Source of the DNA: an uncultured Verrucomicrobiota bacterium
Lineage (GTDB): Bacteria; Verrucomicrobiota; Verrucomicrobiia; Limisphaerales; SXQI01
Assembly (NCBI GenBank): GCA_964566945.1
Contig: CAZMKE010000008.1
Span: 81,222-145,221, forward strand
DNA: 64,000 nt
Direction of reading: 5' to 3'
Shown: positions 31,291 to 41,289 of the stretch, piece after piece
Numbering within the stretch: the first letter of the stretch is position 1
Layout of the letters: each line of letters opens with the position of its first letter
Notes under the pieces: generated by a model
Told to the model about the DNA's origin: nothing
Database searches by the model: none
The model's input: the letters and a program-made list of their open reading frames with translations, nothing else
Program-made: the position numbers and the translations under genes

Positions 31291-32301
31291 ATGAAGACGA
31301 TCCGGATCGCTCAATTCGGGCTCGGCCCGATTGGCCTTGAGACCTTAAAGCTCGCCGCCACGCGCCCCTGGATCGAGATCGTGGGCGGCGTCGACGTCAA
31401 CCCAGCCCTGGCCGGACAATCCCTCGGGGTGCTCACCGGGCTGCCGTCGCTGAGGGGTGCGCCTGTTGTTCCCGCCGTTTCGGACCTGACGGAGCGGCCG
31501 GACCTGATTTTTCACACAGCGGTCTCGAAACTAGCCGATGCCGCGGCTCAAATCCTGCCGCTGGCGGCGCTGGGGATCAGCATTGTTTCTTCCTGCGAGG
31601 AACTGCTCTTCCCGGCTTTTCGGAATGCGCACCTGGCCCGGCAGCTTGACGAAGCGGCGAAGTCGGGCGGGGCGCGCATTCTCGGGACAGGCGTCAATCC
31701 CGGCTTCGTAATGGACCTCCTGCCTCTTTGTTTAACGGGGGTCTGCCGTTCGGTGGAAGCCGTCCACGTTCAACGCGTTGTCAACGCCAGCACACGGCGC
31801 GGACCGCTCCAGAAAAAGATCGGCAGCGGTTTGCCGCCGGCCGAGTTTGAACGCCTTTTCCGGCTGGGGCAGACCGGCCACGCCGGATTGAAGGACTCCG
31901 CCGCCCTCTTGGCGCATGGCCTGGGCTGGGAGCTGGAAAGCCTGGTCGAAACAGGCGCGGCGGTGGCAGCGGATCATGATATTGCCACGGCGCACGTCAC
32001 CGTTAAGAAAGGCCAAACCTGCGGCTTGCATCAGCGGGCGGAGGGAGTCGTCCGCGGCCGGACCTGCCTGACGCTCGACCTCAAGATGTATCTGGATGCG
32101 CCCGATCCGCACGACGCCTGCCAGATCGTAGGGGAACCGCCTCTGGACCTTCGCCTCGAAGGCGGGGTAGCGGGCGACACGGCCACGATTGCGGCGCTGG
32201 TCAACGCCGCGCCGCGCCTGCTTTCGGCCCCGCCCGGACTCCGCCTCATGACGGATATCGCTCTTCCAAAATTCGCCGGGGCCTTCTCGAGGGCAACGTA
32301 A
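31291..32301 (+). CDS. NAD(P)-binding DapB-like oxidoreductase (amine-dehydrogenase-like family)
   Basis: It has the N-terminal Rossmann motif IRIAQFGLGPIGLETLK. The overall length and pattern resemble dihydrodipicolinate-reductase-like proteins, but the function is not assignable from sequence alone. Confidence 0.5.
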   Translation: MKTIRIAQFGLGPIGLETLKLAATRPWIEIVGGVDVNPALAGQSLGVLTGLPSLRGAPVVPAVSDLTERPDLIFHTAVSKLADAAAQILPLAALGISIVSSCEELLFPAFRNAHLARQLDEAAKSGGARILGTGVNPGFVMDLLPLCLTGVCRSVEAVHVQRVVNASTRRGPLQKKIGSGLPPAEFERLFRLGQTGHAGLKDSAALLAHGLGWELESLVETGAAVAADHDIATAHVTVKKGQTCGLHQRAEGVVRGRTCLTLDLKMYLDAPDPHDACQIVGEPPLDLRLEGGVAGDTATIAALVNAAPRLLSAPPGLRLMTDIALPKFAGAFSRAT

Positions 32302-32314
32302 TCGGCCGGCTTGA

Positions 32315-32848
32315 TCAGTCTTGGAACCGGGCGTGGTAAACAAAATCCTTCTCCGAACCAGCTTTTATATGGCATTCCGCGCACACCGCGGATTTCTCGG
32401 GCGGCGTGATAAAAGCACCGTTCGGCTTGTATTCGACAAAGTCCCATTCCCCGCTCCGTTTGTCACCATACTGCTTGCCGAAGTTCCGTTCCTTGCGCAT
32501 CACATGCAAACCGGAGACGGCATCCTTCTTGAGCTGCCCCTTATCATCTTTGCGAGTAGTGGCGGTCTCCATGACGAGGACGGAACCGAAGGGATAAGGC
32601 AACTGAGCTTTGTTCGTCACAGAAGCCGCGGGCTCGTTGCCATAGACGGTCACAAGCTTGGCGCCATGGTCACGTTCCACTGTGCGGAGAATCGAGAATC
32701 GTGCGGCGTAGTCTTTGGGGAAACCGACCCGGTCCACTTTTGCCGCTTCATCGGAATCGGCGAGCGAGCCGAGGCTCAGCGTCACCCCGAGAAGAGCGGA
32801 CATACAGCTTCGGTTCAGAATCCAGGATGAAGGACGACCGTTTTGCAT
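32315..32848 (-). CDS. cytochrome P460-family heme protein (secreted)
   Basis: It has the C-terminal heme motif SAVCAECHIKAGSEKDFVYHARF, preceded by the beta-rich domain typical of P460. There is a signal-like N-terminus. The start is uncertain (32848 or 32803). Confidence 0.6.
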   Translation of the reverse strand: MQNGRPSSWILNRSCMSALLGVTLSLGSLADSDEAAKVDRVGFPKDYAARFSILRTVERDHGAKLVTVYGNEPAASVTNKAQLPYPFGSVLVMETATTRKDDKGQLKKDAVSGLHVMRKERNFGKQYGDKRSGEWDFVEYKPNGAFITPPEKSAVCAECHIKAGSEKDFVYHARFQD

Positions 32849-32988
32849 ATCGGCCGAGGCTAGGGACAATGGGGAAAATCGCAACTTTTGCCGGGACGGC
32901 TGGCCTTTGCTGAAAAATCGGCCTGCAGCGCTTGCGCGCCCGAAGGATTTTGGGCGCAGCGACGTCTTACTAGGTAAAAGGAGGAGAT

Positions 32989-33786: not shown

Positions 33787-34422
33787 ATGACGCGGTCGAT
33801 GGAGGGCGGAATACAGGCGATGGCAGGCATGGAGGATGGGCCGGACGCCGGCAGAGGTTCGGTCCCAGCCTCTCCCGTGTTGCTGGGGCTCACTCGCGCC
33901 ATGGCGGCTGGCGACGAGCAGGCGTTTCGTGATTTTTTTGGCCTGTATTTTCATCGGCTGTTCGCCTATCTCCTGACAGTAGCGCACGGGAACGAGGACC
34001 TGGCGCGGGATTTACTGCAGCAGACCATGATTCGGGTGGCGCGCCATGTAAGACCATTTGCCAGCGAGGAGGAATTCTGGCGCTGGCTCACCCGGCTGGC
34101 GCGGAGCCGTGCCATTGACGAGGGGCGCAGGGCCGGGCGCTACTTTGCCTTTCTGCAACGCTTCACCCTTTGGATCAATACACCCGAAGAGGCCGGACCG
34201 GAAGCAGACCTGGACGCAGTGTTGCAACAAGAATTAGCCCGGCTGCCGGACGAAGAGAGAGCTGTGCTGGAGCGCAAGTATCTCCAGCACTGGTCCGTAC
34301 GGGAAATCGCGGAACTGCAAGGGACTACCGAGAAGGCGGTTGAGTCCCGCCTTAGCCGAGCACGCGCGAGACTGAAGCAATTGACTCTGGCGCGGCTCGC
34401 GGAGGAGGGCGAAAATGAGTAA
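33787..34422 (+). CDS. ECF-type RNA polymerase sigma factor
   Basis: Region 2 reads FRDFFGLYFHRLFAYLLTVAHGNEDLARDLLQQTMIRV. Region 4 reads LPDEERAVLERKYLQHWSVREIAELQGTTEKAVESRLSRARARLK. Several in-frame ATGs (33787-33829) could be the start. Confidence 0.85.
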   Translation: MTRSMEGGIQAMAGMEDGPDAGRGSVPASPVLLGLTRAMAAGDEQAFRDFFGLYFHRLFAYLLTVAHGNEDLARDLLQQTMIRVARHVRPFASEEEFWRWLTRLARSRAIDEGRRAGRYFAFLQRFTLWINTPEEAGPEADLDAVLQQELARLPDEERAVLERKYLQHWSVREIAELQGTTEKAVESRLSRARARLKQLTLARLAEEGENE

Positions 34423-34903
34423 ACTCGATGATCAAGAACGACTGGATCTGTTGCGGGATATGTTACAAACCAGCTGCCCGCCCGATTTCGAAACGGAGAT
34501 CTTCGCCAGAACACTGAAAGCGGCGCGCCGGAGGGCGATAAGACGGACGGTGCTGCGCGGCACTGCCGCCACTGCAGCGTTGTTTCTATTCGCCGCAGCG
34601 ATTCACAGCCGGTGGCAGCGACCTCCCTCAGAACCGACGACCGTCCGCGTGCACGCCCACAAGAGCATCCAAACGGTCCCGTTTGGGAACATCATTCACA
34701 CCGAGAGAATGACCGAACGCGCAACCCCCTCGCCGGGCGTCGCGTTCATCCGCACTCAAAGCGCTGCTGAACAAGGAATTCTTCATCCAATCAACGATGA
34801 AGAGCTCATGAATTTACTCCGCGGGACGGGCATGGCCCTGATCCGCCGAGGCGCGCACGGCGCGGAGCTGATCGGCGATCCAGCAATCAGCGGGAGCCCA
34901 TAA
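34415..34903 (+). CDS. putative anti-sigma factor (single-pass membrane protein)
   Basis: It overlaps the sigma gene by 8 nt. It has one TM helix, GTAATAALFLFAAAI, after a short cytoplasmic N-terminus. I see no recognisable ZAS motif. Confidence 0.5.
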   Translation: MSKLDDQERLDLLRDMLQTSCPPDFETEIFARTLKAARRRAIRRTVLRGTAATAALFLFAAAIHSRWQRPPSEPTTVRVHAHKSIQTVPFGNIIHTERMTERATPSPGVAFIRTQSAAEQGILHPINDEELMNLLRGTGMALIRRGAHGAELIGDPAISGSP

Positions 34904-35237: not shown

Positions 35238-37277
35238 ATGAACGAATCAGAAAATACCAACCACGGCCCCGGTGCGTCCGCAGAAGGGGTAACGCGGCGT
35301 GAGTTTGTCGCCACGGTCGGCGTCACCGCCGCCGCCATTGCCGCCGCCGCGCAACCGCGGCAGGCCCGAGCCGCAAATGCCGCCACGGCGGTCTACCGAA
35401 TTCATCCGGCGATTGGCATCGCGCGGCTCGGAAACCTGGACCCGGATCAAGGCTTCATCGTCGGCCCGGAGATCCCGGGGCAACGCGCAACAGACGGCCT
35501 GACGAATCAGGAAGCTCTGAACTACAAGGTGAACGGGCAGGTAAAACCTCAAGCTGCCCGCTTCCGCATTTTCAAATATGAACCCGATGCGAACGGCAAA
35601 CTCACCCCAACGGGTGAAGTCGTGCCCCAAACCGGATCAACCGGCGGTCCTTTTGTCAGCGCGATCACCTGGAAGGTTCATCTCGCCAATCGCAAAGCGT
35701 CCTTTTACGAAGAAAACGGCCCGAGCGGCGAGACCCACGCATCCGGGGCCCTCCGCAACCCAACGATCAGCGATCGAGCTTCCCTCGAGAGCGACTTTGG
35801 GCCGCGCTCGATCTCTGGCCGGCTCGCGCCGCCCCAACTCTTCACGCCCGGAACCGGAGGCGGCTACGCCGTTCGGCAGGTCAAAGCCTCGGACGGCTCC
35901 ACGGTGATCGATTACCTGGGCCAGCTCCGCACCGATCCGGATGGACACCTCTTGGTATTCGGCGGACGGGGCAAGTCCGCTTCGAGCATTTCCCCGCCGC
36001 AGCCGCTCACGCACTGGTCGAACAACAACTATTGGTTCGACGATATCGCGGATGGCCCGGTCACCGCGATCGTCACGATCAACGATGGCCAGGGCAACCT
36101 GACGGATATTCCCGTGGACGCAGCGGGCAAGGCCTGGGTGCTGGTCGCGCCGCCCGATTTTTCACCGGGGCTGCAGAGCGCCGTTTCGCTCTACGATCTC
36201 CTCTACGACCTGGGCGTGCGGAAGCTCGCGATTCCGGCCAGCAATGCGCTCTACGCCGACGGCGGACCGCTGGCCCGCCTCCGCCAATTGCACGACGCCT
36301 GGACGGCGTGGCAGGCTAACCCTTCCCCCGACGGGTTCGAGTTCGGAGCGATTCAGCCGGATTACCAGTCCGAGATCTGGCCGATGATCCTCAACGCGGT
36401 GAACTACGTTTACACCACGGGCCTGGTGAACTTTAAACACGGCAACATGCTGACCGATCCGCTCGGAGATCCCAGCCCGGCCGCCGCGAAGGATCGCAAA
36501 ACCTTTTTCGGTTTTGTCCGCCCGCCGGAAAATGCCGCCACGAATGTCAATGGCCCGGCCACCATGCCCCGCCTCTACGGCGACAACTGGTACATCGGCA
36601 ACGAAAACTTCGCCTCGACGTTTGGTCAGAATGGCCCGGGCAATGCCGGGGGCGGGGCGGTCCAAGGAACCGGCCCTCGAAAAGTTCCGAAGTACCAGCG
36701 GTACATGACGCTCACGCCTACTCAGTACGGGCTGCTACGCTCCTGGTGTGCCGGAAACTTTGTCCCCCCTCCGGGCAGCTCGACGCCGGACACCACGATT
36801 ACCCCGCACGGCCTCGACCGGGCGAACCTGGAGAATTGCATCGGCGGCCCGTTTTACCCTGGGATTGAGTGCAGCTGGCAAATGCGAAATCCCCTGCTCT
36901 TCATCGAGCCATTTCGCTTGGATCACGCCGCGACCAGCCAGTATCTCCGCCCCGATGGCACTCCCGAAGGAACAACGATTACGGCGGGGCATTTCTCACG
37001 CCAGATGGCTCTGCCGTGGCAAGCGGACTTCAACGACTGCTCCAAGGCGCTGAACCTCGGCTGGTGGCCCTCGGCCCGTCCGGATGATGTGTTCCTCAAT
37101 GTGAACGACAAGCTCCAGGACCGCGTTCCATGGGCGCGCCCCGACACGAAATGGCCCAGCGGCAGCACCAGCTCCAGCCACGAGGACATGGTGGGCAGTT
37201 GGTACAAGTTCGGGTTCGTTCTGGAGGATGGCCCGGGCTTTTATCTCGAGAAGGAGCGAAACAGCCAGGTGCCCTAA
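35238..37277 (+). CDS. LodA/GoxA-family cysteine tryptophylquinone (CTQ) quinoprotein oxidase homolog with a Tat signal
   Basis: It has the Tat signal TRREFVATVGVTAAAIAAAAQPRQARA. LodA-like blocks are present: YRIHPAIGIARLGN, WKVHLANRKASFYEE, DFGPRSISG, LGQLRTDPDGHLLVFGGRG, WFDDIADGPVT, PGIECSW and LPWQADFNDC. Confidence 0.8.
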   Translation: MNESENTNHGPGASAEGVTRREFVATVGVTAAAIAAAAQPRQARAANAATAVYRIHPAIGIARLGNLDPDQGFIVGPEIPGQRATDGLTNQEALNYKVNGQVKPQAARFRIFKYEPDANGKLTPTGEVVPQTGSTGGPFVSAITWKVHLANRKASFYEENGPSGETHASGALRNPTISDRASLESDFGPRSISGRLAPPQLFTPGTGGGYAVRQVKASDGSTVIDYLGQLRTDPDGHLLVFGGRGKSASSISPPQPLTHWSNNNYWFDDIADGPVTAIVTINDGQGNLTDIPVDAAGKAWVLVAPPDFSPGLQSAVSLYDLLYDLGVRKLAIPASNALYADGGPLARLRQLHDAWTAWQANPSPDGFEFGAIQPDYQSEIWPMILNAVNYVYTTGLVNFKHGNMLTDPLGDPSPAAAKDRKTFFGFVRPPENAATNVNGPATMPRLYGDNWYIGNENFASTFGQNGPGNAGGGAVQGTGPRKVPKYQRYMTLTPTQYGLLRSWCAGNFVPPPGSSTPDTTITPHGLDRANLENCIGGPFYPGIECSWQMRNPLLFIEPFRLDHAATSQYLRPDGTPEGTTITAGHFSRQMALPWQADFNDCSKALNLGWWPSARPDDVFLNVNDKLQDRVPWARPDTKWPSGSTSSSHEDMVGSWYKFGFVLEDGPGFYLEKERNSQVP

Positions 37278-37361
37278 AGCGTGGAAACACCGGCGAGCAA
37301 TGAAGCCATGTTTGAAAGGCCCCGGCGGGCGGGCGGCGGCATTTGAACGCGGCGCCGCCAA

Positions 37362-37841
37362 GTGAAGAAGCCCAAGGAGATCTCCCGGCGGGCGCTGCTG
37401 ACCCTATGGCGGACAGCCGCCCGGCCCGTGCCGAAACCACCGGACGCCCAAGCCCGCCCTGAAGACCAGGGCTCCCCGCGCGTGTTACGGCAAGCACCCA
37501 CGCCGCTGCCATGGTTGCTGCGCGAACCGGTAGAGCAGGCCGCGGAAACGCCACTGGCGGGAGAGCCTTTAGTGGCGTTGATCGACGCCACCCGATGCAC
37601 CGCGTGGCGCGGGTTGCCGTGCCGGATTTGCTATGATCTCTGTCCCGTCCCGGGAGCGATCACGATGTCACGCCGTGCGCGCTCGTTCGTCCCCACCGAC
37701 GGGCCAGCGGACTGCACCGGCTGCGGAATCTGCCGCGAACATTGCCCGGCCAACGGCGCCATTCGCCTTGGTCCGGGATCACACGACGAGCATGTGTCCC
37801 GGCGCGTCCGCGTCCTTCAGCCCGAACCGGGGGAGGAATGA
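37362..37841 (+). CDS. 2x[4Fe-4S] ferredoxin-domain protein
   Basis: It has one canonical cluster motif, CTGCGICREHCP, and one atypical motif, CTAWRGLPCRICYDLCP. It uses a GTG start. The N-terminus contains ISRRALL, which is RR-like but lacks a good hydrophobic core. Confidence 0.65.
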   Translation: MKKPKEISRRALLTLWRTAARPVPKPPDAQARPEDQGSPRVLRQAPTPLPWLLREPVEQAAETPLAGEPLVALIDATRCTAWRGLPCRICYDLCPVPGAITMSRRARSFVPTDGPADCTGCGICREHCPANGAIRLGPGSHDEHVSRRVRVLQPEPGEE

Positions 37842-37857
37842 GCGCTGAAGACACTCC

Positions 37858-39309
37858 ATGCCGATTGAAAGCCAGGCGCTCGGAATGACCGACGCACTTA
37901 TCCTCGGAGGCGGTCCGGCCGGACTTGTTCTGGCCATTCTCCTGCGCCGCCTCGGCCACTCTGTGATCGTCCTCGAGCGCAGCCGCTACGAACGGCCGCG
38001 GGCTGGCGAAACGTTTGGCGGCGAATTGCGCTCCCTGCTGAGCGCGCTGGGTTTGGAAGCCCCACTCTCCGGGGTCCAGCGCACGCCATTCCGCGGGGTG
38101 CGATCCGCGTGGGGCAGCGAAGATCTCGTGGATCGGTCCTCGCTATTCAACCCGTTCGGCGAGGGGTGGCATGTCGATCGCGCCGAATTTGACGCGGCGC
38201 TCGCTCACACGGCCCGGATGGAGGGGGTGGACGTTCGGCTGGAAACGCGCCCGAAGTCCATCGATCGCGAAGGCATTGACCGATGGCTTGTCCGGACCAA
38301 GGACGGGAACGCGCTAGCCGCGCGGTATCTGGTGGATGCGAGCGGCCGGGGAGCGCCCGCCAGCGCGCCGGCCATCCCTGGGCGGCGCTGGCTGCAAATG
38401 GACCGGATGGTTGCGGTAATGGCGCGGCTCCGCGCCCCGGACTCGCACGCGTGGGAGATCGCACCGGAACTCCTGCTTGAAGCCGTGCCCGAGGGCTGGT
38501 GGTACTCTGCTCCGCAACCGGGCAACACTCTGCTGATTACGCTGATGACCGACGCCGATCTCATGCCCGCGGGACCACGCGATCGTCTGGCAGAAGCGTT
38601 TGCCGCCGCGCTCTCACGCAGCGACTTCACCGCGCAACGCGGCCGGGCAGGCAAACTCGAAGGCGCTCCCTCCATCGTTCGCGCGGACACGGGCCTGCTC
38701 CTCCCGGATCACGGCCCTGGCTGGCGCGCAATCGGCGATGCCGCGATGAGTTGCGATCCCTTGGCCGGCGACGGCGTCACGCGCGCAGTCCGCACCGCCG
38801 CGAACGCCGCTCCCGACATCCATCGGGCTCTCGCGGGGAATTCCCCGGCAGGCCATCCAGCCGATCTGCCTCAGGCGGCTGGAGATTCTCCTGGGCCTTT
38901 CACGGGATACCTTGAGCTTCGTTCCCGCTATTACAAGCGAGAGAGCCGGTTCTCACGCGCGCTTTTCTGGTCTCGCCGCCAGCCCTTGGACTGGCGGGTG
39001 GCCCCCATTTTCCTCGATCCGGTCCAGCGCCTTCATTGCCCGGAACTCCCGCTCAAACGAGAAGATCTCGCCCCAGTCGAAGCGTTGGTGCCGCCTCGGG
39101 CCTTGCGCTCTTTGCTCGAGAGACTGCGCCAGCCCATGCCCGCTCACCAGGCGCTGGCAGCCCTACGATCCGAAGCGCCCCTCGAGAATCGGCGGTTGCT
39201 GGCAGGAATGCAGGATCTGATCGCCCGCGGCATTCTGCAGGCCAGCGGCTCCAACAAGAATCGCGAGGAAATTTCGCGAAATCCCGGAAAGGCAGAAGAA
39301 ATCCATTGA
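37858..39309 (+). CDS. LodB-like FAD-dependent oxidoreductase (flavoprotein for CTQ biogenesis; halogenase/monooxygenase fold)
   Basis: It has the dinucleotide fold ALILGGGPAGLVLAILLRRLGHSVIVLER and the GD motif AIGDAAMSCDPLAGDGVTRA. It sits downstream of the lodA-like gene, as in known lodAB/goxAB operons. Confidence 0.75.
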   Translation: MPIESQALGMTDALILGGGPAGLVLAILLRRLGHSVIVLERSRYERPRAGETFGGELRSLLSALGLEAPLSGVQRTPFRGVRSAWGSEDLVDRSSLFNPFGEGWHVDRAEFDAALAHTARMEGVDVRLETRPKSIDREGIDRWLVRTKDGNALAARYLVDASGRGAPASAPAIPGRRWLQMDRMVAVMARLRAPDSHAWEIAPELLLEAVPEGWWYSAPQPGNTLLITLMTDADLMPAGPRDRLAEAFAAALSRSDFTAQRGRAGKLEGAPSIVRADTGLLLPDHGPGWRAIGDAAMSCDPLAGDGVTRAVRTAANAAPDIHRALAGNSPAGHPADLPQAAGDSPGPFTGYLELRSRYYKRESRFSRALFWSRRQPLDWRVAPIFLDPVQRLHCPELPLKREDLAPVEALVPPRALRSLLERLRQPMPAHQALAALRSEAPLENRRLLAGMQDLIARGILQASGSNKNREEISRNPGKAEEIH

Positions 39310-39344: not shown

Positions 39345-39595
39345 TCGATGGAAACCTGCACAAACATATCAACCTTGAACCGGCCAATGATGCCGATCGC
39401 GCCGATTATGCGTGCGACACGTCATAATTGGTCCAGTCCGGGTTATATCGTCAGCCTGGGCTTATCCATTTCGTATCAAGGGCAAGGCCTCAAAACACGT
39501 TTTGGATACTCAGAAAGGAAGCAGGCAAAATAGGAACATTATAGAATTTTGAAAACCCTGCTTACCGAAACGTAAGCAGGGTTTTTTGTTTTTCA
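39345..39595 (+). ncRNA. candidate ~250-nt small RNA or leader, bounded by a sigma70-like promoter and an intrinsic terminator
   Basis: TTGACG (39306-39311) is followed by a 15-nt spacer and GATAAT (39327-39332). A strong terminator lies at 39552-39595. The region is 43% G+C by hand count. The internal 61-aa ORF has no SD and unconvincing composition. Confidence 0.3.
39552..39595 (+). terminator. rho-independent terminator (bidirectional architecture)
   Basis: An AAAA run precedes a perfect 10-bp stem CCCTGCTTAC/GTAAGCAGGG (39556-39565 / 39572-39581) with a 6-nt loop. The stem is followed by TTTTTTGTTTTT. Confidence 0.8.
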
Positions 39596-40218
39596 GGATG
39601 AATGACAAGCAGCGCAAACCCAGGAGAAGCAAGCCGTGGACGATGATCTGACGACATCTTGATGATGTCTAGCGACACAATGAAATGGGCGCCGGAGAGC
39701 CGAAGCTCTCCACCGACGAACTTTGCCTCGAGGCGATTTCGAACAGCGCCAAACAGATTCAGCCAGATTTTACAATCAAAGGGCTTCGGAGGAGGTGTGC
39801 CCAAAAACACCGAAACAGCCGCCGTGAAACCGCGGGTTGGGACTTAACCAGTCACCAAGAGGTGTCTGTCTTTTTCCTTCCGGGAGGGATGAGCCTGCCC
39901 ATCCATTCCATTCGATTTTCCAGACGCAGCCTCCCTTCCGCTCGAAGTTTCCTGCCAACTAACTAGTGTTTAGGGTAGCGGCTCAGCCGAAGGCGCCGGA
40001 ACGATTGCTTTCAATTACTTTTCGATCTTTCACTGCGGGAAGAATGAGATTCAGCCAAGCCTCATAAGCTTCGGTTTCGTGGGCGCAACTCCCACTCCCG
40101 CAACCAATTTTCCAGCGCGGCGGAAGAACTCCGCCAGCAGCCGGCCGCCGGGATCCAAATCCCCCTTCGGCTCGGTCAATCCACCCGTCAACACATCAAC
40201 CTCAAATCAAGGAGTTCT

Positions 40219-40368
40219 ATGAAAACAGCCATCCGTTACCGCAGCCAGTTGTTGCTTCGCAAGAGTTATCGGCCGGTGCGAGCGATCCGAGCTCAGCCGG
40301 GGACACATGTGGTCTCAAAGCCGCCACGCCGGTTTGGGCTGAAGCCCAGGCTGGAACTAATTCCGTGA
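40219..40368 (+). CDS. small highly basic hypothetical protein (49 aa; not in the ORF track)
   Basis: AAGGAG (40209-40214) sits 4 nt before the ATG. Hand translation gives MKTAIRYRSQLLLRKSYRPVRAIRAQPGTHVVSKPPRRFGLKPRLELIP. Its stop overlaps the GTG of the next ORF (GTGA). Confidence 0.35.
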   Translation: MKTAIRYRSQLLLRKSYRPVRAIRAQPGTHVVSKPPRRFGLKPRLELIP

Positions 40369-40370
40369 GA

Positions 40371-40577
40371 ATGGGCGCTCAGAGCAATGAAAAGGCGCCC
40401 ACTGACCCTGTTTATAAAATGAAAATGACGACGAATGTTTCGGCAAGGGCGCTCCCCGCCACCACCCAGCAAGGACGATGGCGAGTGATCGGGCTTCTCA
40501 TCCGTTGCGCCGACCTGCTCGCGAAACCCCTCACTGATTGGCCTCGCGAGGTTCAGGAGTCTTATCTGGCTCGTTGA
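40371..40577 (+). CDS. small hypothetical protein (68 aa from the ATG; 70 aa from the GTG at 40365)
   Basis: The ORF is coupled to the preceding small ORF. I recognise no family, and the coding status is uncertain. Confidence 0.25.
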   Translation: MGAQSNEKAPTDPVYKMKMTTNVSARALPATTQQGRWRVIGLLIRCADLLAKPLTDWPREVQESYLAR

Positions 40578-40704
40578 GCCGCTTTGATCGATTTCTCGGG
40601 ACGAACCGCTAAACGGCACGAGGCGCTCCGTGGAGCGCGGAGCGCCTCATTCGCCCGGGAAAGCCAAAAGGCAGACACCTCGAAAATGCCTGCATAAGGA
40701 AGCT

Positions 40705-41289
40705 ATGGACCAGATCCTCAAACGAAATATCGTGCTCGTGCTGAATCGATTCTGGCAGGCGATCGACATTTGAACGCCCGCCGACGCGTTTTGCCGCATG
40801 GCTGCCAATGTAGCCACGGCTTTGGAAATCGAAGGAGCGGGCCAGGTCCGACCGGTTTCGTGGCCCGATTGGCTCGGGCTGCCCATCCGTGACCGCGACC
40901 TTGCCGTCAGCACGGTGCGCGGCCCGGTCCGCGTCCCGACCGTGATCGTAGCCGTGAACTTCAGCAGAGTGCCGAAAAAACGGCCCCGTCTGAATGCCGT
41001 CAATGTTCGCCTCCGCGACGGAGGCCGCTGCCAGTATACCGGCCGCGAACTCGGGCCGAACGAAGGCAATCTGGATCACATCATCCCGCGTTCCAAAGGC
41101 GGGGCGAGCACTTGGGAAAACCTGGTCTGGGCCTCAAAGGAGGTGAATGCCCGAAAGGGCGACCGACTGCCTCACGAGGCCGGCCTCAAGCTGCTCAAGG
41201 TTCCCAAGGCGCCAAAGGAGCTGCCTGTCACGGCGGTCCTCAGAAATCTGGCGGGGATTCCGGATTGGAAGTTGTTCCTGGCCGAATGA
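40705..41289 (+). pseudogene. HNH endonuclease (McrA/COG1403-type, ~190 aa family) interrupted by an in-frame TGA at 40771-40773
   Basis: The upstream 22 codons, MDQILKRNIVLVLNRFWQAIDI, are the family's conserved N-terminus and are in frame with the 163-aa track ORF (40798-41289). That ORF carries the HNH motif GNLDHIIPRSKGGASTWENLVWASKEVNARKG. Confidence 0.7.

What the first reader, a model, noticed from the sequence alone, without database searches (positions are those of the whole stretch)
37362..37841. A di-cluster ferredoxin gene is inserted between the lodA-like and lodB-like genes, suggesting a dehydrogenase rather than an oxidase, or a new maturation factor
As far as I know, described lodAB/goxAB operons are two-gene units with lodB immediately downstream. 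Here a 159-aa ORF sits between them. It has one canonical motif (CTGCGICREHCP) and one atypical motif (CTAWRGLPCRICYDLCP), both [4Fe-4S]-type. Its N-terminus contains ISRRALL. One hypothesis is that it feeds electrons to, or removes them from, the LodB-like flavoprotein during CTQ formation. A second hypothesis is that it is co-exported by Tat hitch-hiking and acts as the physiological electron acceptor. That would make this a CTQ dehydrogenase analogous in logic to quinohemoprotein amine dehydrogenase, rather than an H2O2-producing oxidase.
Basis: inference. Interest (0 to 1): 0.65.

Follow-up and report, generated by a model that had tools for sequence, protein, structure and literature searches.

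The report
Dedicated ferredoxin inside a quinoprotein operon
A small iron-sulfur protein gene really does sit between the gene for a LodA-like quinone enzyme and the gene for its flavoprotein maturase, and it sits directly after the enzyme gene in every related locus examined. This makes it a testable candidate for the unknown redox partner in making the enzyme's built-in quinone cofactor.

Summary
Window 37362-37841 (+) is a real, conserved gene for a 159-aa 2x[4Fe-4S] ferredoxin. It lies between a Tat-signal LodA-like CTQ quinoprotein gene and a LodB/GoxB/QhpG-like flavoprotein gene, in one unit that ends at a strong terminator.

A profile search of 5.8 billion proteins found about 20 clusters of this ferredoxin. 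All 13 members whose context I could read lie directly downstream of a LodA-like gene that is 68-76% identical to the window's. Twelve have a LodB-like gene next to them. Twenty-seven more distant LodA loci (49% identity or less), including the Tat-signal sister clade, have no Fe-S gene within 6 kb.

The protein belongs to the NapG/MauM/NapF ferredoxin superfamily. Most orthologues have four clusters. The window copy is a derived two-cluster form. All full-length members keep an N-terminal SRRxFLxxWR motif but lack the hydrophobic core of a Tat signal. NapF, a cytoplasmic protein, has the same arrangement.

Best reading: a cytoplasmic redox partner for CTQ maturation, most likely for the LodB-like flavoprotein, whose family has no known physiological electron donor. 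The "co-exported acceptor, hence a dehydrogenase" idea is weaker but not excluded. I found no description of this three-gene module in the searchable literature, so I rate it a new variant of a known kind.

The parts
35238..37277 (+). lodA-like gene: a 679-aa CTQ-type quinoprotein precursor. CTQ residues Cys601 and Trp610 and the conserved Asp597 are present.
   Evidence: Pfam LodA_N and LodA_C. NCBIfam LodA 208 bits and GoxA 168 bits, both far below the equivalog cut-offs. Alignment to LodA structures 2YMW and 3WEU.
35238..35372 (+). Twin-arginine (Tat) signal peptide of the LodA-like protein: TRREFVATVGVTAAAIAAAAQPRQARA, with a likely A-x-A cleavage site after residue 45.
   Evidence: TIGR01409 gives a marginal hit. 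The h-region has a 12-residue Kyte-Doolittle mean of 2.11 and 18 uncharged residues. The same signal is present in clade members and in the sister clade. The cleavage site is inferred.
37362..37841 (+). Ferredoxin gene: 159 aa, GTG start, the short two-cluster form of a LodA-linked NapG/MauM/NapF-type ferredoxin.
37380..37418 (+). N-terminal conserved motif ISRRALLTLWRTA (residues 7-19). It is a twin-arginine motif on a predicted helix, with no hydrophobic h-region after it.
   Evidence: R9, R10 and L13 are invariant in alignment A1. The motif is present in every family member that has a complete N-terminus. Helix 9-19 appears in the AF2 model. Hydrophobicity analysis.
37419..37568 (+). Pro-rich and charged linker (residues about 20-69). 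It is variable except for a P-L-P/x-x-L patch.
   Evidence: pLDDT 53-65. Low conservation in A1 and A3, with P48, L49 and L52 conserved in A1.
37569..37781 (+). 2x[4Fe-4S] dicluster ferredoxin domain (residues 70-140).
   Evidence: pLDDT 92-97. Foldseek matches to the DPD and HdrA ferredoxin domains at rmsd 2.1-2.8 A over about 73 residues. Pfam Fer4_7 26.8 bits and Fer4_21 26.4 bits.
37596..37646 (+). Cys motif C79-x7-C87-x2-C90-x3-C94-P. This is the third motif of NapG, MauM and NapF.
   Evidence: Invariant in 21 of 21 family sequences. Aligned with MauM, NapG and NapF.
37713..37748 (+). Cys motif C118-x2-C121-x2-C124-x3-C128-P.
   Evidence: Invariant Cys in 21 of 21 family sequences.
37858..39309 (+). 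lodB-like gene: a 483-aa FAD flavoprotein of the LodB/GoxB/QhpG maturase family, with a C-terminal extension of about 100 aa. The true start may be the ATG at 37885.
   Evidence: NCBIfam GoxB 196.9, LodB 196.7 and QhpG 178 bits. PDB hits to CmlS and QhpG 7CTQ. Clade alignment.
39551..39596 (+). Intrinsic terminator that closes the three-gene unit: a 15-bp stem followed by a T-run.
   Evidence: No comparably strong terminator-like site lies between lodA and this point: two weak matches at 37220 and 37605 have stems of 5 and 8 bp. The 84-nt lodA-fdx spacer has no significant structure.

Best explanation
The ORF encodes a dedicated third component of a distinct clade of lodA/lodB-type operons. 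It is a cytoplasmic 2x[4Fe-4S] ferredoxin descended from four-cluster NapG/MauM-type ferredoxins.

Proposed mechanism:
1. The LodA-like precursor folds in the cytoplasm.
2. The LodB-like FAD protein carries out the oxidative steps that turn Trp610 and Cys601 into cysteine tryptophylquinone.
3. The ferredoxin is the protein redox partner for that flavoprotein. It most probably delivers electrons to FAD for O2 activation. Less probably, it takes electrons away.
4. The finished quinoprotein alone leaves through the Tat pathway.

The conserved N-terminal SRRxFLxxWR helix on a flexible linker is proposed to act as a tether to a partner, not as an export signal.

Shown: the gene is real; it is exclusively linked to this LodA clade; its superfamily; the two-cluster fold; the lack of a Tat h-region; the operon structure.
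Inferred: its location, its partner, the direction of electron flow, and the tether role.
For: (1) Exclusive linkage. The family forms a discrete high-scoring group, P0001-P0020 at 125-233 bits, with the next hit at 55 bits. All 13 members with readable context lie immediately downstream of a LodA_N/LodA_C gene. Twelve have a LodB-like flavoprotein gene next to them.

(2) Coupling to lodB. The fdx stop and the lodB start overlap by 11 nt in L001, L040, L041, L050, L052 and the P0005 locus, and by 20 nt in L047. The gap is 6-16 nt in L048, L049 and the window. The lodA-fdx spacers are 24-103 nt in 11 of 12 loci; in L007 the two genes overlap by 4 nt.

(3) No Tat h-region in any member, as in cytoplasmic NapF. 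The nearest relatives MauM and NapG do have one. NapF is a cytoplasmic maturation factor for Tat-exported NapA (PMC10609526).

(4) The flavoprotein family needs such a partner. QhpG's FAD is not reduced by NADPH, NADH, FADH2, dihydrolipoate or glutathione. Its NAD(P)H-binding region is not conserved. Its 'physiological electron donor ... is unknown', and the authors name ferredoxin as a candidate (PMC7876137).

(5) The best structural matches of the Fe-S domain are dicluster domains that sit within flavoenzymes (DPD, HdrA).

(6) No cytochrome, NapH/MauN-type or other membrane partner is conserved next to the module. Only the three genes are shared between the window, L001, L002 and L045-L052.

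(7) In L007 the ferredoxin is followed by a peptidase-U32 protein instead of lodB. This family contains O2-independent hydroxylases. From my memory of Lauhon 2019 (not retrieved), TrhP needs the ferredoxin YfhL. That would fit a ferredoxin that serves whichever hydroxylase modifies LodA.
Against: - All evidence is from gene context. No interaction or activity was tested.
- The constant neighbour is lodA (13 of 13, same strand). lodB is inverted in L045 and L046 and is not adjacent in L007. The true partner could therefore be LodA.
- Most lodAB systems, including the Tat-signal sister clade (42-49% LodA identity), work without a dedicated ferredoxin. From my memory, recombinant LodA matures in E. 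coli with LodB alone. Any role is therefore clade-specific or replaceable.
- For LodB and GoxB the literature favours remote oxidation of a mono-hydroxylated precursor, so the direction of electron flow is uncertain.
- LodB proteins of the ferredoxin clade show no obvious clade-specific docking feature.
- What reduces or oxidises the ferredoxin itself is unknown.
Confidence: 0.45

Rival explanations
1. NapF-like escort. The ferredoxin acts on the LodA precursor, not on LodB. It binds the Tat-targeted apoprotein in the cytoplasm and supports or checks cofactor formation before export, with or without electron transfer to the nascent quinone. NapF is thought to do this for NapA.
For: lodA is the invariant upstream neighbour, on the same strand, in 13 of 13 loci. 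lodB is inverted in L045 and L046 and not adjacent in L007. The N-terminus (SRRALLTLWRTA) closely resembles that of E. coli NapF (SRRGILTGRWRKA), and both lack an h-region. NapF is cytoplasmic, binds NapA, and is dispensable in some organisms (PMC10609526). LodA of the ferredoxin clade carries clade-specific features: a conserved 27-aa Gly-rich insertion and changed residues around the CTQ Cys and Trp. These could form a docking surface.
Against: NapF's proposed job is Fe-S insertion into NapA, and LodA-like proteins have no Fe-S motif. Sister-clade Tat-LodA proteins need no such factor. The translational coupling is with lodB, not lodA. By sequence the protein is closer to NapG and MauM (93-107 bits for long forms) than to NapF (37-48 bits).
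Confidence: 0.25
2. Exported redox subunit. The ferredoxin binds folded LodA, is carried across by LodA's Tat signal, and accepts electrons from CTQ in the periplasm. The enzyme would then be a dehydrogenase and not an H2O2-forming oxidase.
For: LodA has a genuine Tat signal and the ferredoxin has none of its own. This is the pattern of hitch-hiking Fe-S subunits such as DmsB (established knowledge). The nearest relatives, NapG and MauM, are periplasmic electron carriers, and MauM is encoded in the gene cluster of a tryptophylquinone (TTQ) dehydrogenase. LodA is unusually conserved (68-76%) and has clade-specific changes next to the CTQ residues. A periplasmic H2O2 producer would be costly for the cell (inference).
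Against: No onward acceptor is conserved in any of the loci: no NapH/MauN, no cytochrome c, no cupredoxin, no membrane anchor. The sister clade is Tat-exported without a ferredoxin. Loss of the h-region while the RR motif is kept matches cytoplasmic NapF. Shrinkage to two clusters, and Cys-to-Ser changes in the first motif of P0009 and P0010, do not suggest a fixed electron wire. Tight coupling is to the cytoplasmic maturase gene. [4Fe-4S] clusters are poorly suited to an oxic periplasm and to the positive potential of tryptophylquinones (my knowledge; not measured here).
Confidence: 0.15
3. Passenger or non-functional ORF: a generic ferredoxin gene, or a decaying remnant, that happens to lie in the spacer and has no role in the lodAB system.
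For: The window copy is truncated relative to most orthologues. It has a GTG start and no SD. Pfam domain scores fall just below the gathering thresholds.
Against: 13 of 13 linkage across unrelated genomic backgrounds, where only the three genes are shared. Eight invariant Cys and an invariant RR motif at 39-49% identity. An intact frame everywhere. GC3 equal to its neighbours, and no SD on lodA or lodB either. Short forms recur in five cluster representatives (window, P0001, P0003, P0005, and the full-length L007 copy, 939-1463, whose database gene call P0006 is an N-terminally truncated version).
Confidence: 0.03

Closest known systems
NapF (cytoplasmic ferredoxin of periplasmic nitrate reductase operons)
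   Same: An N-terminal twin-arginine motif followed by W-R and no hydrophobic h-region. The same Cx7CxxCxxxC third motif. A small accessory Fe-S protein encoded beside a Tat-exported redox enzyme. Present in some lineages and dispensable in others.
   Different: The HMM score to NapF is weak: 37-48 bits for long orthologues against a cut-off of 102, and the window copy is not among the 25 hits shown. The client enzyme has no Fe-S or molybdenum cofactor. The context is lodA/lodB, not nap. The window form has two clusters, not four.
MauM (NapG-type ferredoxin in the methylamine dehydrogenase mau cluster)
   Same: It shares the best-scoring annotated family with NapG: 35% identity to the long form over the alignment, and TIGR00397 at 93-96 bits for long orthologues. 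It is likewise encoded in the gene cluster of a tryptophylquinone enzyme, directly after the cofactor-maturation gene mauG.
   Different: MauM has a true Tat signal and a membrane partner, MauN (NapH-like), next to it. The LodA-linked protein has neither. MauM belongs to a TTQ/di-haem MauG system, whereas this one belongs to a CTQ/flavoprotein system. MauM's own function is unresolved (my knowledge).
NapG (periplasmic four-cluster ferredoxin of the NapGH quinol dehydrogenase)
   Same: The best NCBIfam hit: 38.9 bits for the window copy and 94-107 bits for long orthologues. It has the same four-motif architecture and the RPPGA motif seen in the long forms.
   Different: All scores fall below the cut-off of 269. 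There is no h-region, no NapH, and no nap genes. The window copy lacks motifs I and II.
Canonical lodAB/goxAB operons and the 'group ID' variant with a small intervening gene
   Same: A LodA-family quinoprotein followed by a LodB-family flavoprotein. Group ID also has a small gene (138-142 aa) between the two (PMC4417212).
   Different: The group ID protein has no recognisable domain and travels with tyrosinase and multicopper-oxidase genes. Here the intervening gene is an Fe-S ferredoxin, LodA carries a Tat signal, and no copper oxidases are linked. Whether the two small proteins are related was not tested, because I had no group ID sequence.
QHNDH maturation system (QhpG flavoprotein with the radical-SAM Fe-S protein QhpD)
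   Same: CTQ is made in the cytoplasm by a LodB-like FAD monooxygenase that cannot use NAD(P)H. Fe-S clusters in a partner protein were proposed as the route for electrons (PMC7876137).
   Different: QhpD is a radical-SAM enzyme that forms thioether bonds. The CTQ-bearing subunit is a small peptide. There is no stand-alone ferredoxin gene.
FixC/FixX and archaeal geranylgeranyl reductase plus ferredoxin (my knowledge, not retrieved)
   Same: Flavoproteins of the same broad superfamily (COG0644; TIGR02032 hit at 75 bits) that receive electrons from a small ferredoxin encoded next to them.
   Different: Different ferredoxin families and different substrates. This is an analogy of logic only.

Membership tests
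2x[4Fe-4S] dicluster ferredoxin domain (Pfam Fer4_7 / Fer4_21) | Two Cys motifs that supply 8 ligands, each ending in C-P | tested here: met
   C79, C87, C90, C94-P and C118, C121, C124, C128-P. All 8 Cys are invariant in 21 of 21 family sequences.
2x[4Fe-4S] dicluster ferredoxin domain (Pfam Fer4_7 / Fer4_21) | Score at or above the Pfam gathering threshold | tested here: not met
   Fer4_7 26.8 against 27.0. Fer4_21 26.4 against 35. All eight Fer4-type models fall just under their thresholds.
2x[4Fe-4S] dicluster ferredoxin domain (Pfam Fer4_7 / Fer4_21) | The (beta-alpha-beta)2 ferredoxin fold | tested here: met
   AF2 residues 70-140 at pLDDT 92-97. Foldseek matches to the DPD and HdrA dicluster domains with probability 0.99-1.0 and rmsd 2.1-2.8 A, although E-values are only about 0.015.
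2x[4Fe-4S] dicluster ferredoxin domain (Pfam Fer4_7 / Fer4_21) | Actually binds two [4Fe-4S] clusters | not testable with these tools
   Needs reconstitution, UV-vis and EPR.
MauM/NapG ferredoxin family (TIGR00397; NF007012) | HMM score above the curated cut-off | tested here: not met
   Window copy: 38.1 and 38.9 bits. Long orthologues: 93-107 bits. Cut-offs: 178.85 and 269.
MauM/NapG ferredoxin family (TIGR00397; NF007012) | Four Cys motifs (four clusters) | tested here: not met
   The window copy has only motifs III and IV. The 11 full-length long-form database sequences (P0004, P0007-P0013, P0016-P0018) and the full-length L002 copy have all four.
MauM/NapG ferredoxin family (TIGR00397; NF007012) | A functional Tat signal: RR motif plus hydrophobic h-region | tested here: not met
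   The RR motif is present. The best 12-residue Kyte-Doolittle mean is 0.53, with only 6 uncharged residues in a row. MauM and NapG score 2.06 and 1.97, with 16 and 19 uncharged residues.
MauM/NapG ferredoxin family (TIGR00397; NF007012) | An adjacent NapH/MauN membrane partner | tested here: not met
   None in the window or in any related locus. It is present in the P. denitrificans mau cluster and the E. coli nap operon.
NapF (TIGR00402) | RR motif without an h-region (cytoplasmic type) | tested here: met
NapF (TIGR00402) | HMM score above the cut-off, and a nap operon context | tested here: not met
   Not among the 25 hits shown for the window copy. Long orthologues score 37-48 bits against a cut-off of 102.2. 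There are no nap genes nearby.
LodA/GoxA CTQ quinoproteins (upstream neighbour) | LodA_N and LodA_C domains, and the Cys and Trp that form CTQ | tested here: met
   Pfam E 3e-48 and 1e-33. Cys601, Trp610 and Asp597 align with LodA Cys516, Trp581 and Asp512.
LodA/GoxA CTQ quinoproteins (upstream neighbour) | Equivalog-level match to lysine oxidase LodA or glycine oxidase GoxA | tested here: not met
   208 bits against 600, and 168 bits against 750. This is a separate clade with a Tat signal and unknown substrate.
LodB/GoxB/QhpG maturase flavoproteins (downstream neighbour) | An FAD-binding fold with family-level similarity over its full length | tested here: met
   GoxB, LodB and QhpG models are matched end to end at E 1e-52 to 1e-58. 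PDB hit to QhpG 7CTQ.
LodB/GoxB/QhpG maturase flavoproteins (downstream neighbour) | Score above the equivalog cut-offs | tested here: not met
   197, 197 and 178 bits against cut-offs of 400, 400 and 240.
Canonical two-gene lodAB operon | lodB immediately downstream of lodA | tested here: not met
   The ferredoxin gene intervenes here and in the other loci of this clade. Among the 27 more distant loci, lodB follows lodA within about 15-130 nt in most. The exceptions are L017 (a second lodA-like gene intervenes), L021 (a gene for a 342-aa protein intervenes), L026 (a spacer of about 0.5 kb after the lodA ORF end), L029 (lodB on the opposite strand, directly after a long lodA ORF) and L030 (a long fused lodA ORF).

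The most novel reading that the evidence does not exclude
This LodA clade may not be an oxidase with a self-contained maturation system. It may be the first tryptophylquinone enzyme wired to iron-sulfur clusters. One version is a periplasmic CTQ dehydrogenase whose co-exported ferredoxin is the electron acceptor. The other is a system whose CTQ can be built without O2-dependent flavin chemistry, using the ferredoxin with U32-type hydroxylases, as the L007 locus hints.
Probability: 0.12. Interest if true: 0.85.

Novelty: new variant of a known kind. Interest (0 to 1): 0.58.

Why it matters
The flavoproteins that build cysteine tryptophylquinone (LodB, GoxB, QhpG) have no known physiological electron partner. 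For QhpG, the nucleotide cofactors and the thiols tested all failed, and the authors explicitly left the donor open (PMC7876137).

A ferredoxin that is genetically locked to a lodA/lodB pair, often with overlapping stop and start codons, gives a concrete three-protein system in which that question can be tested in vitro.

It also creates a parallel with MauM, the ferredoxin of unknown role in TTQ (methylamine dehydrogenase) gene clusters. Fe-S carriers may therefore be a recurring, overlooked part of tryptophylquinone biology.

Finally, it defines a well-conserved, horizontally mobile, Tat-exported LodA clade of unknown substrate. The clade is found in Myxococcota MAGs, in one MAG labelled Rhodocyclaceae, and in this probably PVC-group genome.

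Tried and rejected
- Metagenome pattern scan with the ferredoxin alignment. It returned only 9 distant ferredoxins, with no LodA or LodB nearby. It did not extend the family, but it showed that small RR-motif ferredoxins also exist alone (L031, L032).
- Look-ups of the window's own ferredoxin and LodA proteins. Neither is on record, so the source organism stays unidentified.
- Fold of the lodA-fdx spacer. There is no significant structure (z = +1.3), so an attenuator idea was dropped.
- Search for clade-specific docking features in LodB. Nothing convincing emerged: only a variable insertion at about residues 325-340 and a few substitutions.
- The LodB C-terminal extension as a ferredoxin-binding module. 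Rejected, because the ferredoxin-less sister clade has it too.
- The Tat signal on LodA as the reason for the ferredoxin. Rejected, because the sister clade has Tat signals without a ferredoxin.
- Synonymous-substitution test on near-identical contig pairs. The pairs are identical at the nucleotide level, so the test gave no information.
- Context of a more distant RR-ferredoxin, P0031. Its neighbours are uninformative.
- Literature for MauM/MauN function and for the YfhL-TrhP link. Nothing was retrievable, so those points rest on my memory and are marked as such.
- AlphaFold-multimer of the ferredoxin with LodA or LodB was not possible with the tools offered.
Full report
**1.

Window 37362-37841 (+) is a 159-aa ORF with a GTG start.

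Upstream, 35238-37277 encodes a 679-aa protein with Pfam LodA_N (E 3e-48) and LodA_C (E 1e-33). Its N-terminus is a twin-arginine signal (TRREFVATVGVTAAAIAAAAQPRQARA). Alignment to the LodA structures 2YMW and 3WEU places its Asp597, Cys601 and Trp610 on LodA Asp512, Cys516 and Trp581. Those LodA Cys and Trp residues form cysteine tryptophylquinone (residue roles from PMC4417212).

Downstream, 37858-39309 encodes a 483-aa FAD protein. It matches the GoxB, LodB and QhpG maturase models end to end at 197, 197 and 178 bits, all below the equivalog cut-offs. Among solved structures it matches flavin halogenases and QhpG (7CTQ).

A 15-bp-stem terminator lies at 39551-39596. No comparably strong site lies within the three genes; there are two weak consensus matches at 37220 and 37605. 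The 84-nt lodA-fdx spacer has no significant fold.

GC3 of the ORF is 0.75, against 0.76 and 0.72 for its neighbours. An in-frame TGA at 37344 leaves GTG 37362 as the only start that includes the conserved SRR. None of the three genes has a Shine-Dalgarno sequence.

**2. The gene is conserved and specific to one LodA clade**

A scan of one genome per GTDB species with the LodA protein gave 30 loci. A homologue of the ferredoxin lies directly after lodA only in the three loci whose LodA is 69-75% identical to the window's: L001 (Byssovorax MAG), L002 ('Rhodocyclaceae' MAG) and L007 (Myxococcales MAG). In most of the other 27 loci (49% identity or less), lodB follows lodA within about 15-130 nt. 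The exceptions carry a second lodA-like gene, an unrelated secreted-protein gene, a long spacer, an inverted lodB or a fused long lodA ORF. None of the 27 has any ORF with a ferredoxin-type Cys motif within 6 kb on either side.

A single-sequence search of 5.8 billion proteins found only three relatives. A profile search found a discrete group of 20 clusters at 125-233 bits, with the next hit at 55 bits.

Every member whose contig I could read sits between a LodA_N/LodA_C gene and a LodB-like flavoprotein gene. These are P0001, P0003, P0005, P0007, P0008, P0010, P0013, P0015 and P0017. In L045 and L046 the flavoprotein gene is on the opposite strand.

With the window, L001, L002 and L007, this makes 13 of 13 members linked to lodA and 12 of 13 next to lodB. 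In all of them LodA is 68-76% identical to the window's, LodB is 50-59% over the full-length alignments (67% over the 77-residue fragment in L040), and the ferredoxin core is 50-60%. The flanking genes differ from locus to locus. The three genes therefore travel as a module.

**3. What kind of ferredoxin it is**

The long orthologues (213-248 aa) carry four Cys motifs and an RPPGA motif. They score 93-107 bits against the NapG and MauM/NapG models and 37-48 bits against NapF, all below the cut-offs.

The nearest annotated relatives in plasmid records are NapG and the Paracoccus denitrificans gene annotated 'napG'. That gene lies at the position of mauM in mauFBEDA-amicyanin-mauJ-mauG-M-N.

The 'atypical' motif Cx7CxxCxxxCP is the standard third motif of NapG, MauM and NapF. 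The window protein, P0001, P0003, P0005 and the L007 protein are short forms. They have lost motifs I and II and keep III and IV. In P0009 and P0010 the first motif reads CxxSxxC. The conserved core is therefore the C-terminal dicluster domain plus the N-terminal motif.

AlphaFold2, run with the 21-sequence family alignment, gives three regions: a helix at residues 9-19, a low-confidence linker at 20-68, and a confident domain at 70-140 with pLDDT 92-97. The best structural matches of that domain are the 2x[4Fe-4S] domains of dihydropyrimidine dehydrogenase and HdrA.

An exhaustive HMM search of 1.84 billion representatives shows the family is the tip of a large superfamily: 151 representatives at E 1e-30 or better and 2814 at 1e-10 or better. 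The closest outside relatives (P0036-P0039, P0043, P0049, P0031) also have an RR motif without an h-region.

**4. Where the protein probably sits**

All full-length family members keep SRRxFLxxWR. What follows is Pro-rich and charged. The best 12-residue Kyte-Doolittle mean is -0.5 to 1.3, and for most members the longest uncharged run is 5-10 residues (13 in P0007, 20 in P0009).

The genuine Tat signals of the window LodA, P. denitrificans MauM and E. coli NapG score 2.0-2.1, with 16-19 uncharged residues. E. coli NapF scores 0.01 with 8, and its N-terminus (SRRGILTGRWRKA) resembles the window's (SRRALLTLWRTA).

NapF is a cytoplasmic protein that binds NapA and aids its maturation before Tat export (review PMC10609526). 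On its own, therefore, the ferredoxin is predicted to stay in the cytoplasm.

**5. Mechanism**

The QhpG study shows that the FAD of this flavoprotein family is not reduced by NADPH, NADH, free FADH2, dihydrolipoate or glutathione. [quoted passage not shown] The physiological donor is unknown, and ferredoxin, flavodoxin and thioredoxin are named as candidates (PMC7876137).

In this clade a ferredoxin gene is fused into the operon. Its stop codon overlaps the lodB start by 11 nt in at least six loci and by 20 nt in one. In contrast, lodA-fdx spacers are 24-103 nt in 11 of 12 loci.

My best explanation (confidence 0.45) is that the ferredoxin is the cytoplasmic redox partner of the LodB-like flavoprotein during CTQ formation, before the matured LodA is exported. 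The direction of electron flow is uncertain. For LodB and GoxB the literature discusses remote oxidation of a mono-hydroxylated precursor.

A NapF-like role on the LodA precursor itself is the main rival (0.25). It is favoured by the fact that lodA, not lodB, is the invariant neighbour.

It is also weakened by the Tat-signal sister clade (LodA 42-49% identical: L003-L006, L008-L011, L018), which has no ferredoxin.

A passenger or dead ORF is nearly excluded (0.03).

**6. Comparison with what is known**

Campillo-Brocal et al. 2015 surveyed lodA-like loci. They reported variants, including a small domain-less gene between lodA and lodB in 'group ID' and ferritin-like genes in fungi. They reported no ferredoxin and did not discuss Tat signals.

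In the searchable library, only two papers mention LodA, LodB and ferredoxin together, and neither describes such a gene.

The ferredoxin fails the curated thresholds and several defining features of NapG/MauM (four clusters, a Tat signal, a NapH/MauN partner) and of NapF (score, nap context). I therefore file it as a new LodA-linked subfamily of that superfamily, and the operon as a new three-gene variant of the lodAB type. It works most like NapF in logic and most like MauM in genetic setting.

**7. Side observations**

LodA proteins of the ferredoxin clade share a conserved 27-aa Gly-rich insertion and different residues flanking the CTQ Cys and Trp: FNDCSK...NLGWWPSARPDD, against FNDCRNEGNYAWWPxQRPT in the sister clade.

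In L007 the ferredoxin is followed not by lodB but by a 298-aa protein with no Pfam or NCBIfam match and then a peptidase-U32 protein (Pfam E 5e-36, with weak TrhP and UbiU matches). The U32 family contains O2-independent hydroxylases (family role from PMC6599085). The contig ends 0.7 kb further on, so replacement of lodB is only a possibility.

The window itself is probably from the PVC group. This is an inference from the DUF1501, PSD1 and PSCyt2 genes and a sub-threshold hit of the ECF sigma factor to the Rhodopirellula/Verrucomicrobium-type model.

**8. Verdict**

The finding is real and was not described in the literature I could search. It makes an acknowledged open question directly testable: what the redox partner of the CTQ-forming flavoproteins is. 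The function rests on gene context only.

Interest 0.58. Novelty: new variant of a known kind.

Noticed in passing
L007:1485-3405 (uncultured Myxococcales MAG contig CAIXAA010000595.1): After lodA and the short ferredoxin comes not lodB but a 298-aa ORF with no Pfam or NCBIfam match (Cys at 34, 198, 217, 221). After that comes a peptidase-U32 protein (Pfam E 4.7e-36; weak TrhP and UbiU matches). The U32 family contains O2-independent, prephenate-dependent hydroxylases, so this could be an alternative oxygen-independent route to the quinone cofactor. The contig ends at 4078, so lodB may still lie beyond it. No U32 homologue was found in the window or in the other 41 loci held at that point (L001-L042). 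The later loci L045-L053 were not searched with the U32 proteins, though no Peptidase_U32 Pfam family is listed among their called genes.
   Followed up: partly
window 36597-36683 (LodA residues about 454-482): LodA proteins of the ferredoxin-bearing clade share a conserved 27-aa Gly-rich insertion (NENFxxTFGQNGxGNxGGGAVQxxGPRxV). They also differ from the ferredoxin-less sister clade in the residues flanking the CTQ Cys and Trp. This may be a docking surface or a substrate determinant.
   Followed up: partly
window 38890-39240 (LodB residues about 345-460): The LodB-like protein has a conserved C-terminal extension of about 100 aa. It is shared by both Tat-LodA clades but absent from more distant LodB homologues, whose alignments stop near residue 375. 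Its function is unknown. It does not depend on the ferredoxin.
   Followed up: partly
P0009 and P0010 (L045:6001-6642); family alignment A3: The family has long four-motif and short two-motif forms. In two long members the first motif reads CERSGHC, with the second Cys replaced by Ser. The N-terminal dicluster half therefore seems to be decaying in several lineages, while the C-terminal half and the RR helix are kept.
   Followed up: yes
window 33787-34903: An ECF sigma factor gene (33787-34422) and an overlapping gene for a putative anti-sigma factor (34415-34903; weak NCBIfam hits only) lie directly upstream of lodA on the same strand. The P0005 locus also has an ECF sigma gene, plus a Ser/Thr kinase gene, next to the module. 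These may be regulators.
   Followed up: no
L031:365-715 and L032:2003-2512 (metagenome contigs): Small two-cluster ferredoxins (116 aa in L031; the matching reading frame in L032 starts at its internal Met) have an ISRREWF / SRRAWF N-terminal motif and no h-region. No LodA or LodB gene lies on these short contigs. P0031, P0036-P0039, P0043 and P0049 are four-cluster proteins of the same RR-without-h-region type. There seems to be a broad, largely unannotated class of NapF-like ferredoxins.
   Followed up: partly
window 31291-32884: A gene with a 2,4-diaminopentanoate dehydrogenase C-terminal domain (31291-32301, +) and a cytochrome P460 gene (32315-32884, -) lie about 2.4-4 kb upstream of lodA. 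A link to the unknown amine or amino-acid substrate is pure speculation.
   Followed up: no
window 39600-41289: Downstream of the terminator is a stretch of about 1.2 kb with only short, low-GC3 ORFs, followed by an HNH endonuclease gene (40798-41289). Together with the different flanks in every related locus, this fits horizontal mobility of the three-gene module.
   Followed up: no
L021:7661-8689: In a cyanobacterial (Symploca) locus, a different gene lies between lodA and lodB. It encodes a 342-aa protein with an apparent N-terminal signal sequence. This is another example showing that lodAB operons are not always two-gene units.
   Followed up: no
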